From the IMG/VR virus record IMGVR_UViG_2579778784_000010, positions 1 through 10,995 of that record: 10,995 nt of DNA; one strand, written 5' to 3'. A program made the position numbers and the translations under genes. Positions 1-8,490 of the stretch are shown here, piece by piece. The notes beneath the pieces are model-generated. The model worked only from the letters and a program-made list of their open reading frames with translations. It had not been told where the DNA came from and ran no database searches. Each line of letters starts with the position of its first letter. Position 1 is the first letter of the stretch. Source of the DNA: a virus. Lineage: Duplodnaviria > Heunggongvirae > Uroviricota > Caudoviricetes.

Positions 1-420
1 ATGACGGATTATCAGCCATACAGGAAAGGAACTGTGCTTGCCCCAACAGGGCCATGCAATCATCTTCATGTGATTTGTAATGATCCTGTTTATTACCCCG
101 TTAACGATTGTTATTGTGTTTTAGTTGTTAATATTTCTAGTATCAAGGATGGTGTCCCCCACGATCCGTCTTGCGTCTTGAATTCTGGTGATCATCGCTT
201 TATCAAGCATCCAAGTTATGTTGTTTACGCTGAAGCTATAATTTGGCGAGTGGATAACATGGTTAGAAAGCAGCGATCGGGTGAGATTTCTGTTCATGAT
301 GATATGCCAGAAGCTACATTCAATAGAATTCTGGACGGTTTTGATATATCTGATGAAGTTACGCCAAAGAACCTTAAATTTAAAAATAAATATTGCGTAT
401 CATCTATTGATGATGAGTAA
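1..420 (+). CDS. AT-rich accessory gene; MazF/PemK-like (Kid/CcdB fold) putative endoribonuclease toxin, 139 aa
   Basis: ORF starts with ATG at window position 1 (true start or an upstream partner gene may lie outside the window); TAA at 418-420. By-eye alignment to E. coli MazF is colinear: CYCVLVV vs CLCVPCT, CVLNSG vs VVLSG, AIIWR vs SIAWR, C-terminal PEATFNRILDGF vs PEELQLIKAKINVLIG. Very AT-rich with rare codons (AGA, AGG, ATA), unlike neighbouring genes. No search run. Confidence 0.45.
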   Translation: MTDYQPYRKGTVLAPTGPCNHLHVICNDPVYYPVNDCYCVLVVNISSIKDGVPHDPSCVLNSGDHRFIKHPSYVVYAEAIIWRVDNMVRKQRSGEISVHDDMPEATFNRILDGFDISDEVTPKNLKFKNKYCVSSIDDE

Positions 421-6041: not shown

Positions 6042-6404
6042 TTAATGACCTGCTGCGCGTAGTTTTCCGTCAGGTTCACCGGCAAGAGTCAGTAATTGTC
6101 CCTGGTCTTCCTGCAGAATAGTCAGACGACCACCGCGATTGACATACATCGGCGTTTCGGTGGTGTCTTCTTCGGAAATTTTCCCGCGGTTAGTCGGGCG
6201 AACATATGAGAGTTTGTGTTTGATTTTCACACGGTTCTCATCAAATGGTTCGATTTCCAGGTTGAGTGAGACCTTACCTTTGGTTTTCGTGTTCATCACA
6301 CCGGAAGCGACTTCACTGAGAACTGCGCCGATTTTGGTTTCAAATACGCCGCCGTCCAGCTCCCCGATAAATGCCTGCACATCAGTACTGCGTTCGCTAG
6401 CCAT
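6042..6404 (-). CDS. yfdP: YfdP-like protein, 120 aa
   Basis: ATG at 6404 with GAGGAG RBS 7 nt upstream. The 226-aa track ORF extends upstream through GC-rich non-coding sequence and a terminator hairpin, so is rejected. 120 aa equals K-12 YfdP. Confidence 0.6.
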   Translation of the reverse strand: MASERSTDVQAFIGELDGGVFETKIGAVLSEVASGVMNTKTKGKVSLNLEIEPFDENRVKIKHKLSYVRPTNRGKISEEDTTETPMYVNRGGRLTILQEDQGQLLTLAGEPDGKLRAAGH

Positions 6405-6872
6405 TTTGCTGCTCCTCATCATATCGACCCTGCAAGGTCGGTTGGTTTCTCCACAAAACAGAGAAGAACACCTGCGGTGGCAGCCGCCCGGATGGATTGG
6501 GTTATGAGCCCGTCGTCCGGTGATGCTCTTCTCTGTTTTGTAAAAAGAGCGGTACCAGCCGGAAGCAAGGGTACAAGCTGGTACCGCCAGGACTACACAC
6601 AGCATAAAGTTGTGGTGCCGGGTGCCTCCCGGTGCCTGGCGAAGGTTGCACACCAGGCGGGTGGGTATCCACAGAAGGTCGACTGTCAGCCTCAACCTTA
6701 ACCCGCGTGCGCTGAGCCGCATTCACCACAACGCTAAGGATTCTCTCTGGTTGAAAATACTTAGCTGTTATGTGCCTGCTTTTAGCCACATCAGGCGAGG
6801 TGGGCCTGGTTATTCCCCAACAACAAGGATTCGGCTAATCTGGATGACTCTGTTCTTAGAGGGGATAATTAA
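6405..6872 (-). other. GC-rich structured untranslated leader of the early-left operon (candidate regulatory RNA region)
   Basis: No ORF with a credible start or RBS; open in several frames at once (GC-rich). Perfect 15-bp inverted repeat 6453-6467/6527-6541, 11-bp inverted repeat 6549-6559/6577-6587, and adjacent short hairpins at 6628-6660. Confidence 0.4.
6541..6587 (-). terminator. intrinsic terminator in early-left leader (tL-like)
   Basis: Minus-strand RNA: GCGGUACCAGC-(17 nt loop)-GCUGGUACCGC followed by UCUUUUUA; about 140 nt upstream of the YfdP-like start. Confidence 0.45.
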
Positions 6873-7385
6873 ATGGGAGCGATTTATGTTAAACGTTTGA
6901 TTCTGTCGGTAGCACTGATAATACCGATAGCATCCAATGCTTCTGATGCTTTGAACCAGCCGAGCAGTAGTCTAAATGATGGTGTTGAGACTTTTTTTAT
7001 TTCCTGCTTTGATATGCCTCAGGAAACAACTACTGATATGGACGCTTGTCAGAGAGTTCAGTTAGCTCAGGTTAGTTGGGTTAAGAATAAGTATTCGGTG
7101 GCCGCCCTGAATCGTTTGAAACAAGACAACAAGGATGATCCACAGCGTCTGCAGGAATTAACTGCTTCTTTTAACGCGGAAAGTGAAGCTTGGACAGAAT
7201 TAATTGAGAAAGCGTCAAAGTCCGTCCAGGTTGATTATGCAGGAGGAACTATAGCTGGCACTGCAGTTGCATCACGTCAAATTGGTCTTCTGGAATTACA
7301 ATCCCACGATATCTGGGAGCACTGGCTACGATTCGAGGACTCAACTCCTCCTCTTTTGCCAGAACCAAAGTTCAAATCTGAGTAA
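6873..7385 (+). CDS. secreted DUF1311/LprI-like (YecT-like) protein, 170 aa; opposite-strand moron
   Basis: ATG at 6873 with AGAGGGG upstream. N-terminal signal peptide (KR, hydrophobic core LILSVALIIPIA, ASNA/SDA cleavage-like site), two Cys, then W...Y...DYAGGTIAGTAVASR...DIW pattern I associate with DUF1311. AT-rich with rare codons; own terminator downstream. Confidence 0.65.
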   Translation: MGAIYVKRLILSVALIIPIASNASDALNQPSSSLNDGVETFFISCFDMPQETTTDMDACQRVQLAQVSWVKNKYSVAALNRLKQDNKDDPQRLQELTASFNAESEAWTELIEKASKSVQVDYAGGTIAGTAVASRQIGLLELQSHDIWEHWLRFEDSTPPLLPEPKFKSE

Positions 7386-7410
7386 TAAGTCATCCAGATT
7401 GTTAAAGAGC

Positions 7411-7436
7411 GAAGCGTCCTATAGGGCGCTTTTTTG
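7411..7436 (+). terminator. Rho-independent terminator of the moron
   Basis: Hairpin GAAGCGTCC-TATA-GGGCGCTT followed by TTTTT, about 25 nt after the TAA at 7383-7385. Confidence 0.55.
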
Positions 7437-7594
7437 TTGCTAACGAATCATCCTGGACTTCATATGCCCCAGGCGGCTACTTCGTGGTCGTCCTGACTGT
7501 TCGTTTTTGACATTTACTGACCGCTTACGACACATGCACCATGCACCGTGTTGCAACCAGATTTTGTTGTAATCCTGTAGTTGGTCTGGAACAA

Positions 7595-7623
7595 AAGATA
7601 AAATTAAAATGCGAGATGTGCAA
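7595..7623 (-). promoter_or_regulatory. PL-like leftward early promoter
   Basis: On minus strand: -35 TTGCAC (complement of 7618-7623), 17-nt spacer, -10 TATCTT (complement of 7595-7600); the -35 lies inside an operator repeat. Confidence 0.35.
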
Positions 7624-7646
7624 GCAATATTTTGCGAGATGTGCAA
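7609..7646. promoter_or_regulatory. OL-like operator pair
   Basis: Two copies of a 15-bp pseudo-palindrome, ATGCGAGATGTGCAA (7609-7623) and TTGCGAGATGTGCAA (7632-7646), sharing an identical 14-bp core and fitting TTGCG-N5-YGCAA; the same half-sites recur at OR. Confidence 0.5.
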
Positions 7647-7656
7647 AATGATGGGT

Positions 7657-7682
7657 GATAAAAAGCCACCTTTCGGTGGCCG
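7657..7682 (-). terminator. intrinsic terminator downstream of cI
   Basis: Minus-strand hairpin GCCACC-GAAA-GGUGGC followed by UUUUUA, about 20 nt after the cI stop (7701-7703). Confidence 0.5.
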
Positions 7683-7700
7683 ATGGATGGGATATTGAAG

Positions 7701-8393
7701 TTAATTATGTCTCTTAAGGGTTTGCGACTGACTGATTAAGACCTTTCCAAAGACCATGAATCGGTGTTCGTTTTCGCTAGTAATTCCCCATTCACGGTAA
7801 ATCTGGTTATCAGAAATCACCAGCAGTTTGTCAGGAATCATTTGAAGTCTTTTAACGTATATTTTGTCATCAAAACCAAAGACATATATACCATCACCAT
7901 CAAACTGATTGATGCTGACATCAACGAAGATGAGATCTCCTGGCTCAATGGTTGGACACATACTGTCCCCACGAACGTTGATAACTTTGATGTGATTGGC
8001 TGGTCGTCCGCCGAACATTGATACAGCATTATCAGTTCTGTATTCGATGGCATGAATCACATCAATGACATCACCGCCCTGGATAAGGCCATTTCCCGCA
8101 CTGGCACTGATATCCAGCATTTCAATACGGAACACATCCTTCACCTGCGCAACATCCTCATCATTACTGTTTTTATATACAGTATTACTTTTGAGGGCAG
8201 AGGTAAAGAGATCAGCAATATCAACACCTAAGCTCTTGGCAATATTACTCAGTGTTTGTTCGGTAAATTGTTTCTGCTTACCCGTTTCTAAGCGCGAGAT
8301 GTTCGCCGCATCTACTCCTATTGCTTCAGCGAGATCGGCGATTTTCATGTTCTTCGCTTGGCGAAGTTGTCTGACTCGGTTTCCTATGTTCAT
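7701..8393 (-). CDS. cI: cI-like prophage repressor (XRE-type HTH plus S24 LexA-like peptidase), 230 aa
   Basis: N-terminal HTH (IADLAEAIGVDAANISRLETGK); C-terminal S24 motifs GDSM (Ser) and YVKRL (Lys); Ala-Gly candidate autocleavage site (SASAGNG). Divergent from the cro-like gene with operators between. ATG at 8393 has no SD. Confidence 0.85.
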   Translation of the reverse strand: MNIGNRVRQLRQAKNMKIADLAEAIGVDAANISRLETGKQKQFTEQTLSNIAKSLGVDIADLFTSALKSNTVYKNSNDEDVAQVKDVFRIEMLDISASAGNGLIQGGDVIDVIHAIEYRTDNAVSMFGGRPANHIKVINVRGDSMCPTIEPGDLIFVDVSINQFDGDGIYVFGFDDKIYVKRLQMIPDKLLVISDNQIYREWGITSENEHRFMVFGKVLISQSQTLKRHN

Positions 8394-8399
8394 GCGTTT

Positions 8400-8428
8400 A
8401 TTACATTTCTTTATTGCGTGATAAGCAA
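8400..8428 (-). promoter_or_regulatory. PRM-like promoter for leaderless cI transcript
   Basis: Minus strand: -35 TTGCTT (complement of 8423-8428), 17-nt spacer, -10 TGTAAT (complement of 8400-8405) ending 6 nt before the cI ATG, so transcription would begin at or next to the start codon. The -35 overlaps operator 8414-8428. Confidence 0.4.
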
Positions 8429-8476
8429 ATCAACTTGCGCAAAACACTTGCGTGAAATAACATGCATAACGCGCAA
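8414..8476. promoter_or_regulatory. OR-like operator region
   Basis: TTGCGTGATAAGCAA (8414-8428), palindrome TTGCGCAA (8435-8442), ATGCATAACGCGCAA (8462-8476); same TTGCG/CGCAA half-sites as OL. Confidence 0.45.
8435..8463 (+). promoter_or_regulatory. PR-like rightward promoter
   Basis: -35 TTGCGC (8435-8440), 17-nt spacer, -10 TAACAT (8458-8463); followed by GGAGGG RBS and the cro-like ATG at 8491. Confidence 0.35.
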
Positions 8477-8490
8477 TATTTGGAGGGTAT

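What the first reader, a model, noticed from the sequence alone, without database searches (positions are those of the whole stretch)
6873..7436. Opposite-strand AT-rich moron encoding a secreted DUF1311-like protein
A single gene with its own terminator, antisense to the early-left transcript, sits where lambda carries accessory genes next to the immunity region. The product has a cleavable signal peptide and resembles DUF1311/LprI (lysozyme-inhibitor-like) proteins. Its composition marks it as foreign. A periplasmic protein expressed from the prophage could affect envelope stress, lysozyme sensitivity or superinfection exclusion.
Basis: partly seen in the sequence, partly recalled or inferred. 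Interest (0 to 1): 0.45.

Follow-up and report, generated by a model that had tools for sequence, protein, structure and literature searches.

The report
Prophage gene for periplasmic DUF1311-like protein
A real accessory gene next to the repressor of an E. coli prophage encodes an exported small helical protein, a divergent member of the DUF1311/LprI family; its job is untested, and "lysozyme inhibitor" is only the family's name.

Summary
Window 6873-7385 (+) is a 170-aa gene with a Shine-Dalgarno site, a Sec-type signal peptide (predicted cleavage ASNA|SD) and a terminator hairpin at 7411-7432. It lies between the leftward early genes (yfdP/Q/R) and cI of an SfV/SfII-type E. coli prophage.

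dN/dS is 0.1-0.2, so the protein is under selection.

- The composition is not distinctive.
- The terminator and upstream region belong to a conserved cargo slot that other phages fill with unrelated genes.
- The "lysozyme inhibitor" label is weak.

The best-supported guess is a periplasmic binder, an orphan immunity protein against an incoming cell-wall hydrolase. This is untested, and expression in the lysogen could not be checked.

Verdict: ordinary, a new member of a known kind. Interest about 0.3.

The parts
6873..7385 (+). Coding sequence of the 170-aa protein (stop codon included). It is identical to RefSeq WP_000500990.1 'hypothetical protein' and matches phrog_7681 over its full length.
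   Evidence: dN/dS is 0.11-0.21 against the Klebsiella, E. albertii and metagenome alleles.
6873..6941 (+). Codons 1-23, the predicted Sec/SPase I signal peptide (MGAIYVKR-LILSVALIIPI-ASNA | SD).
   Evidence: Hydropathy and the -3/-1 rule. Residues 1-24 are unmodelled, with pLDDT below 50. Relatives all have N-terminal hydrophobic leaders. This is rule-based, not a SignalP result.
6859..6864 (+). Shine-Dalgarno-like GAGGGG, 8 nt before the ATG.
   Evidence: Read directly from the sequence.
6770..6848 (.). Conserved left scaffold of the cargo slot. It is shared with phages carrying other cargo and with an Erwiniaceae chromosomal copy. It contains the candidate promoter TTCCCC (6813-6818), a 17-nt spacer, and TAATCT (6836-6841).
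   Evidence: Alignments. Identity is 87-97% against 75% for the CDS. TAATCTG and the TT of TTCCCC are invariant in all 8 loci, including the diverged chromosomal copies. Promoter function is inferred; the consensus scan found none.
6837..6860 (.). Left arm of the inverted repeat that brackets the cargo (13-nt perfect core AATCTGGATGACT).
   Evidence: I2; duplex -30.5 kcal/mol against -9.3 +/- 3.1 for shuffled arms; paired in both the MFE and the centroid structure.
7377..7400 (.). Right arm of the inverted repeat (core AGTCATCCAGATT). It overlaps the last codons and the stop codon.
   Evidence: The arms are also present, with different extensions, around the unrelated cargos of PhiR29_1 and SfIV.
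7411..7438 (+). Intrinsic-terminator-like hairpin plus T-run, part of the conserved right scaffold.
   Evidence: It is conserved downstream of unrelated cargos.
7390..7513 (.). Conserved right scaffold of the slot, shared by phages whatever their cargo. The immunity-type-specific sequence begins beyond about 7513.
7609..7646 (.). Two operator-like sites, (A/T)TGCGAGATGTGCAA, matching the pattern TTGC-N7-GCAA. This is the presumed OL, where the leftward early promoter would lie (context, not part of the gene).
   Evidence: The same pattern occurs between cI and cro (8414-8428, 8463-8477), and related sites occur in SfII, which has the same cI. Function is inferred.
6540..6762 (-). STnc100/PasD-like prophage sRNA element immediately left of the slot (context).
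   Evidence: Rfam RF02076 scores 45.4 bits against a gathering score of 47, E 3e-8. The family is described as prophage-encoded in bioRxiv 10.64898/2026.05.13.724894.

Best explanation
Shown:
- This is a genuine accessory gene under purifying selection. It sits in a conserved cargo slot between the leftward early operon and cI of SfV/SfII-type lambdoid prophages.
- Its product carries a signal-peptide-like N-terminus (rule-based call, no SignalP). The predicted mature protein is about 16.5 kDa and acidic (pI 4.6).
- The model shows a three-helix bundle of the DUF1311/LprI superfamily, plus a subfamily-specific N-terminal beta-hairpin and a C-terminal strand.
- Only one of the family's two cysteine pairs is retained.

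Inferred:
- In the lysogen the gene is transcribed rightward from a weak promoter in the left scaffold (TTCCCC-17-TAATCT) and stops at the scaffold terminator. The leftward early promoter is repressed at that time.
- The protein is exported to the periplasm. There it acts with no enzymatic activity of its own, by binding and neutralising a peptidoglycan-cleaving protein that enters from outside.
- The most likely target is a muramidase-type type VI effector of competitors. A superinfecting phage's tail lysozyme is the alternative.
- On this reading it is an orphan immunity or defence protein that benefits the lysogen.
For: Identity:
- The family profile retrieves 241 representatives, and 38 of 40 sampled are PF07007.
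- hhalign against canonical DUF1311 proteins gives 99.86%, E 4.8e-31.
- The C-terminal motif DSTPPLLPEP is shared with the family.

Export: signal-peptide features.

Selection: dN/dS is 0.11-0.21 with dS of 0.95-1.6.

Accessory and mobile character:
- The gene is in the same slot beside different repressors.
- It is on 27 viral contigs and in at least 142 of 5426 complete E. coli genomes.
- Solo copies occur on chromosomes, a plasmid-like contig, and beside another S24 repressor.

Mechanism, from literature only:
- The DUF1311 protein Etsi4 rescues E. coli from the periplasm-acting effector Etse4 (PMC12981562).
- Signal-peptide LprI-domain proteins occur as predicted cognate or orphan immunity genes next to lysozyme-like T6SS effectors (PMC9796082; PMC12135965).
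Against: - No toxin or effector gene is adjacent in any of the contexts examined, so no cognate partner is known.
- There is no detectable pairwise similarity to the presumed Etsi4 (ECs_0213).
- There is no match in the defence-system library PADLOC.
- The second disulfide typical of the family is missing.
- No consensus promoter was found, and expression in lysogens was not examined.
- No DUF1311 domain has a solved complex with any target, and the only solved structure has no assigned function.
Confidence: 0.35

Rival explanations
1. ScwA-like role. The periplasmic protein modulates the level or activity of the host's own peptidoglycan hydrolases, such as lytic transglycosylases. This would alter envelope homeostasis in the lysogen rather than neutralise a foreign enzyme.
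For: ScwA of Salmonella is a horizontally acquired, soluble periplasmic protein with a C-terminal LprI/DUF1311 domain. It controls MltD levels and had no role in lysozyme resistance (PMC7933661). The gene here has no toxin partner in any context.
Against: ScwA is 275 aa with an extra N-terminal region and four conserved cysteines, and the two proteins share only the domain. The profile search with this protein's family returned mainly proteins of about 140 aa. There is no evidence that this protein touches host enzymes.
Confidence: 0.2
2. Superinfection exclusion. The protein inhibits the cell-wall-digesting enzyme on the tail of incoming phages in the periplasm and so blocks DNA entry. This would work like T4 Spackle acting on gp5 lysozyme (comparison from my own knowledge of T4).
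For: The gene is prophage-borne, sits next to the immunity region, and is oriented to be expressed while the lytic promoters are off. It is periplasmic. The family is associated with antagonism of lysozyme-like enzymes.
Confidence: 0.15
3. True inhibitor of animal (c-type or g-type) lysozyme, protecting the lysogen in the host.
For: The Pfam family name is LprI 'lysozyme inhibitor' (weak hit). Many carriers are human or urinary isolates.
Against: According to PMC7933661, LprI also carries an MliC domain that is sufficient for inhibition, the DUF1311 domain has no experimental support for this role, and ScwA gave no protection. This protein has no MliC, Ivy or Pli domain.
Confidence: 0.1
4. A passenger without current function: a silent or decaying gene carried along in a recombination hot spot.
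For: No consensus promoter was found. The Erwiniaceae copy (L004) has an internal stop codon. Truncated versions exist in databases.
Against: dN/dS is 0.11-0.21 across alleles whose synonymous sites are near saturation. There are 55 invariant columns among 9 full-length homologues. The gene is kept in the same slot in several genera.
Confidence: 0.05

Closest known systems
DUF1311 / LprI domain family (Pfam PF07007), e.g. P. putida PP0307 (PDB 3gi7)
   Different: This protein scores below Pfam's gathering threshold as a single sequence. It lacks the second cysteine pair; the canonical cysteines align with A114 and S134. It adds about 25 residues forming a beta-hairpin (residues 31-43) that, in the model, is joined by a C-terminal strand. 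It is carried on prophages.
[not shown]
   Same: All are small DUF1311/LprI-domain proteins with a signal peptide. Etsi4 is reported to neutralise a periplasm-acting, cell-wall-targeting effector.
   Different: Those genes sit beside effector genes or inside T6SS islands, whereas this one is solitary in a prophage. There is no pairwise similarity to the presumed Etsi4, ECs_0213. I assigned ECs_0213 as Etsi4 by its position downstream of hcp and its weak LprI hit.
ScwA (SL1344_0490) of Salmonella Typhimurium
   Same: Both are horizontally acquired, soluble periplasmic proteins with an LprI/DUF1311 domain and DsbA-type cysteines.
   Different: ScwA is 275 aa with the domain at its C-terminus and two disulfides. 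It is chromosomal, not prophage-borne. Its described role is control of MltD levels.
Phage morons and lysogenic-conversion genes next to the immunity region (lambda rexAB/sieB; the moron concept from HK97/HK022 comparisons; from my own knowledge)
   Same: It is a single extra gene between blocks conserved among related phages. It is oriented against the lytic operon and is followed by a terminator.
   Different: The terminator and probable promoter belong to a conserved scaffold that is reused for unrelated cargos, and the cargo is bracketed by an inverted repeat. The composition is not deviant.

Membership tests
DUF1311 / LprI (PF07007) | The single sequence reaches the Pfam gathering score | tested here: not met
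   E 0.0062, 17.3 bits against a cut-off of 22. There is no hit at E<=0.001.
DUF1311 / LprI (PF07007) | Homology to family members at profile level | tested here: met
   The profile of 9 homologues hits 241 representatives, 63 of them at E<=1e-10. Of 40 sampled, 38 are PF07007. hhalign gives 99.86%, E 4.8e-31 over 117 columns.
DUF1311 / LprI (PF07007) | Fold of the solved family member (helical bundle of 3gi7) | tested here: met
   [not shown]
DUF1311 / LprI (PF07007) | Four conserved cysteines (two disulfides) | tested here: not met
   Only C45 and C59 are present. All four cysteines are invariant in 28 canonical members. The second pair is replaced in this subfamily.
DUF1311 / LprI (PF07007) | Exported (signal peptide or lipoprotein signal) | tested here: met
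   Rule-based analysis shows n-, h- and c-regions and ASNA|SD with no lipobox. No SignalP was available and there is no experiment.
Moron (independently expressed accessory gene of a temperate phage) | Present in some and absent from otherwise collinear relatives | tested here: met
   The flanks are shared with SfII, SfIV, SfV, Kati and PhiR29_1/PhiR49_1, which carry other cargo.
Moron (independently expressed accessory gene of a temperate phage) | Own promoter and terminator | tested here: inconclusive
   A terminator-like hairpin is present, but it is part of the shared scaffold. No consensus promoter was found. There is only a phylogenetically conserved weak candidate, TTCCCC-17-TAATCT.
Moron (independently expressed accessory gene of a temperate phage) | Deviant nucleotide composition | tested here: not met
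   GC is 43.5%, the 16th percentile of same-size windows, and cI is 42.1%.
Moron (independently expressed accessory gene of a temperate phage) | Expressed from the repressed prophage | not testable with these tools
   No transcript data were available, and no paper mentions WP_000500990.
Known proteinaceous lysozyme inhibitors (Ivy, MliC/PliC, PliG, PliI) | Carries one of those domains | tested here: not met
   No such Pfam or NCBIfam hit was found. The predicted fold is helical.
T6SS cognate immunity protein | Encoded adjacent to its effector gene | tested here: not met
   No effector-like neighbour was found in the E. coli, Klebsiella, E. albertii, Raoultella, Erwiniaceae or metagenome contexts. 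Only an orphan role remains possible.
T4 Spackle-type superinfection exclusion protein | Sequence or fold similarity to Spackle or other viral periplasmic inhibitors | tested here: not met
   [not shown]

The most novel reading that the evidence does not exclude
The prophage carries an orphan periplasmic immunity protein that protects lysogens from peptidoglycan-degrading weapons of rivals (T6SS muramidase-type effectors) or from the tail lysozymes of other phages. It is delivered through a conserved plug-in expression slot beside cI. In that slot, unrelated cargos share one promoter and terminator scaffold and are bracketed by a co-varying inverted repeat that may control their expression.
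Probability: 0.2. Interest if true: 0.55.

Novelty: new member of a known kind. Interest (0 to 1): 0.3.

Why it matters
If the protein neutralises an incoming cell-wall hydrolase, this would be lysogenic conversion that gives a gut or urinary E. coli resistance to bacterial or phage attack. It would also give the poorly understood DUF1311 domain a tractable, single-gene test case. The conserved slot beside cI, with its shared scaffold and bracketing inverted repeat, may explain how these phages swap and express accessory genes. As it stands, the gene is an uncharacterised but ordinary prophage accessory gene.

Tried and rejected
- Direct sequence search of PDB, with the single protein and with the family profile, gave only chance-level hits.
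- NCBIfam and PADLOC gave nothing meaningful.
- BFVD viral fold search found no match. The afdb50 library was unavailable.
- I looked for an "empty" slot, with the two inverted-repeat arms within 30 nt of each other, in viral contigs. One pattern gave zero hits. The looser one gave 14 unrelated chance matches.
- I looked for a toxin or effector partner next to homologues in 12 contexts and found none.
- Comparison with the presumed Etsi4 of O157 showed no similarity.
- Other cargos of the same slot (PhiR29_1 242 aa, SfIV_36, SfII_36, SfV orf33) have no informative Pfam or PHROG annotation, so the slot's contents do not point to a common function.
- A sigma-E promoter reading of the conserved TCTG(A/G) motif was considered by eye and dropped, because the -35 AAC core is not conserved in the chromosomal copies.
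- The 68-aa ORF at 7440-7646 (-) has no family hits and overlaps the operator-like sites, so I treat it as non-coding.
- A literature search for the protein accession found nothing.

Full report
**What is there**

The window is the early region of an SfV/SfII/CPS-53-type lambdoid prophage of E. coli.
- Reading leftward on the minus strand are yfdP (6042-6404), yfdQ (DUF2303), yfdR (5'-deoxynucleotidase), DUF551, Ead/Ea22, a Mom-like protein, an Rv2179c-like exoribonuclease and a PrtN-like protein.
- To the right lie cI (7701-8393, minus strand; HTH plus S24 peptidase), then cro, a CII-like gene and an Ash-family gene on the plus strand.

The region 6700-7700 is 100% identical to chromosomal prophages in many E. 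coli isolates. At least 142 of 5426 complete genomes carry 80% or more of it. RefSeq annotates the ORF as hypothetical protein WP_000500990.1.

The finding's ORF is exactly as described.
- It runs 6873-7385 on the plus strand and encodes 170 aa from an ATG, with GAGGGG 8 nt upstream.
- It is followed by a 9-bp GC-rich hairpin and a T-run at 7411-7438.

**Is it a real gene?**

Yes.
- It matches phrog_7681 end to end (E 1e-120).
- Homologues at 55-99% identity occur in Escherichia, Klebsiella, Raoultella and an Erwiniaceae genome.
- Nine full-length homologues share 55 invariant columns.
- Pairwise Nei-Gojobori dN/dS between the window allele and the Klebsiella, E. albertii and metagenome prophage alleles is 0.11-0.21. 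Synonymous divergence in those comparisons is 0.95-1.6. The protein is therefore under purifying selection.
- One copy, in the Erwiniaceae genome, has an internal stop codon.

**What the protein is**

Pfam alone is not convincing: LprI/PF07007 scores E 0.006 and 17.3 bits, against a gathering score of 22. Three independent lines settle the question.
1. An HMM of nine close homologues, searched against 1.84 billion representatives, returns 241 proteins at E<=0.001. Most are about 140 aa and match positions 51-166. Of 40 sampled, 38 are PF07007.
2. hhalign of the close family against 28 canonical members gives 99.86% probability, E 4.8e-31.

The alignment shows the family hallmarks.
- The first cysteine pair is present (C45, C59).
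- The TT motif, Y74, W107 and G125 are present.
- The C-terminal HD.W..WLR..DSTPPLLPEP motif is present.

It also shows what is different.
- This subfamily replaces the second, otherwise invariant, cysteine pair.
- It adds about 25 residues that the model folds into a beta-hairpin (31-43), next to a C-terminal strand (164-169).

**Export**

The N-terminus has the features of a Sec signal peptide.
- There is a basic n-region (K7, R8).
- There is an 11-12 residue hydrophobic core.
- There is a small-residue c-region, ASNA|SD, with no lipobox cysteine.
- There is no other hydrophobic stretch.

Residues 1-24 are the only part of the model below pLDDT 50. Essentially all relatives have comparable leaders. 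This is rule-based evidence; SignalP and experiment are still needed. The predicted mature protein is 147 aa, 16.5 kDa, with pI 4.6.

Related phages share the DNA on both sides of the gene but not the gene itself.
- Homology with PhiR29_1, PhiR49_1, SfIV and Kati runs up to about 6848 and resumes at about 7390.
- In between, those phages carry unrelated plus-strand genes of 242 aa (PhiR29_1) or 144 aa (SfIV_36). Neither has any informative annotation.
- SfII (a 63-aa plus-strand gene) and SfV (a minus-strand gene) also carry other cargo, but their left flank diverges earlier, at about 6778.
- The left scaffold (about 6770-6848) and the right scaffold (7390-7513, including the terminator) are 91-97% identical between phages. 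The alleles of the DUF1311 gene are only 75% identical, with nearly saturated synonymous sites.

The terminator is therefore a property of the slot, not of this gene.

The same gene occupies the same slot, in the same orientation, beside different repressor alleles. This holds in Klebsiella variicola, E. albertii and metagenome prophages and on 27 IMG/VR contigs.

The gene is also found elsewhere.
- The unit "left scaffold, gene, terminator" occurs, as a pseudogene, inside an opp-like transporter operon of an Erwiniaceae genome.
- More diverged copies (55-66% identity) are solitary chromosomal genes in Raoultella and Klebsiella.
- A 34%-identical relative (P0024) is on a Rep3 plasmid-like contig.
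- A 33%-identical relative (P0025) sits beside another S24 repressor and a lysis cassette.

The moron interpretation is thus well supported by distribution.

Composition does not support it. GC is 43.5%, the 16th percentile of same-size windows and similar to cI at 42.1%.

**Expression signals**

The consensus scan finds no sigma-70 promoter on the plus strand upstream.
- The best candidate is TTCCCC (6813-6818), a 17-nt spacer, then TAATCT (6836-6841).
- TAATCTG and the TT are invariant in all eight aligned loci. These include chromosomal copies whose synonymous sites are saturated.
- This is the conservation pattern expected of -35 and -10 elements, but the match to consensus is poor.

Two sites, (A/T)TGCGAGATGTGCAA, at 7609-7646 fit the pattern TTGC-N7-GCAA. 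The same pattern is present twice between cI and cro, and related sites are conserved in SfII, which has the same cI. I take these as OL, with the leftward early promoter there. This step is inferred, not shown.

**An unexplained feature**

The cargo is bracketed by an inverted repeat.
- In the window, the arms are AATCTGGATGACT (6837-6849) and AGTCATCCAGATT (7388-7400), extendable to 24 nt.
- The unrelated cargos of PhiR29_1 and SfIV are bracketed in the same way. They share the outer core and have different, still complementary, inner extensions.
- Duplex energies are -23 to -30.5 kcal/mol, against about -9 +/- 3 for shuffled arms.
- Folding the 615-nt RNA pairs the arms in both the MFE and the centroid structure.
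- One natural variant keeps the pair as G.U on the plus strand only.

If the transcript starts at the candidate promoter, most of the left arm would not be transcribed. It therefore remains open whether this is an RNA-level or a DNA-level feature. No empty site was found.

**Function**

Nothing here tests function. The family name is a weak guide.
- According to PMC7933661, M. tuberculosis LprI also carries an MliC domain that is sufficient for lysozyme inhibition, and the LprI/DUF1311 domain itself has no experimental support for that role.
- The same paper reports that the periplasmic DUF1311-domain protein ScwA did not affect lysozyme sensitivity but controls MltD levels.
- The window protein has no MliC or other inhibitor domain.

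The best experimental precedent is immunity.
- Etsi4, a DUF1311 protein of E. coli O157:H7, rescues cells from the periplasm-acting effector Etse4 (PMC12981562).
- Signal-peptide LprI-domain genes are predicted cognate or orphan immunity genes beside lysozyme-like T6SS effectors (PMC9796082; PMC12135965).

I therefore favour a non-enzymatic periplasmic binder that neutralises an incoming peptidoglycan hydrolase, acting as an orphan immunity protein.

The main caveats are these.
- No effector gene is adjacent in any context.
- There is no similarity to the presumed Etsi4.
- There is no PADLOC hit.

The rivals are a ScwA-like effect on host hydrolases, Spackle-like exclusion of phages, true lysozyme inhibition, and a passenger with no current function.

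**Verdict**

The gene is a bona fide accessory gene of a conserved cargo slot. The composition argument, the "own terminator" point and the lysozyme-inhibitor inference are weak. It is a new, divergent member of a known domain family on a known kind of element, and interest is modest.

Noticed in passing
window 6540-6762 (-): An STnc100/PasD-like prophage sRNA element lies here (Rfam RF02076, 45.4 bits against a gathering score of 47, E 3e-8), in the GC-rich stretch upstream of yfdP. RefSeq annotates a 'frameshifted hypothetical protein' pseudogene over the same DNA (window 6419-6729), which is probably a mis-annotation of the RNA gene.
   Followed up: partly
window 6837-6860 and 7377-7400; also L019 (PhiR29_1), L020 (SfIV), L022 (Kati): An inverted repeat brackets the cargo of the slot. 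Its outer core is shared, and its inner part differs between three unrelated cargos but stays complementary (duplex -23 to -30.5 kcal/mol against about -9 for shuffled arms). It could be a long-range mRNA stem next to the Shine-Dalgarno site, an RNase III site, or a DNA-level recombination feature. This is unresolved.
   Followed up: partly
window 6770-6848 and 7390-7513: The scaffold sequences flanking the slot are 91-97% identical between phages, while the alleles of the enclosed gene are only 75% identical with saturated synonymous sites. This suggests that cargo is exchanged by recombination in the flanks, or that the flanks are under strong constraint (divergent promoters for the sRNA and the cargo).
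   Followed up: partly
window 7609-7623, 7632-7646, 8414-8428, 8463-8477: Operator-like sites of the form TTGC-N7-GCAA occur twice left of cI (presumed OL) and twice between cI and cro (OR). Related sites occur in SfII, which has a 99% identical cI.
   Followed up: partly
window 1-420 (+): A 139-aa plus-strand ORF at the left edge, opposite to the leftward operon, has the lowest GC in the window (38.3%, GC3 30.7%) and no Pfam hit. It is a more compositionally deviant moron candidate than the gene under study.
   Followed up: no
L004 6911-9875 (Erwiniaceae bacterium CAU 1747): About 3 kb is inserted between two permease genes of an opp-like ABC transporter operon. The insert carries the left scaffold, a copy of the DUF1311 gene with an internal stop codon, the terminator, and other ORFs without Pfam hits.
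   Followed up: partly
window 6042-6722 (-): The mechanical 226-aa ORF here is an artefact of an open frame upstream of yfdP. Only the last 120 codons (6042-6404) match YfdP families and the RefSeq annotation.
   Followed up: yes
L067 6001-10283: A 33%-identical relative of the protein sits beside an S24-type repressor and a holin/amidase lysis cassette in an unrelated metagenome contig. The association with prophage immunity regions may therefore extend beyond Enterobacterales.
   Followed up: no
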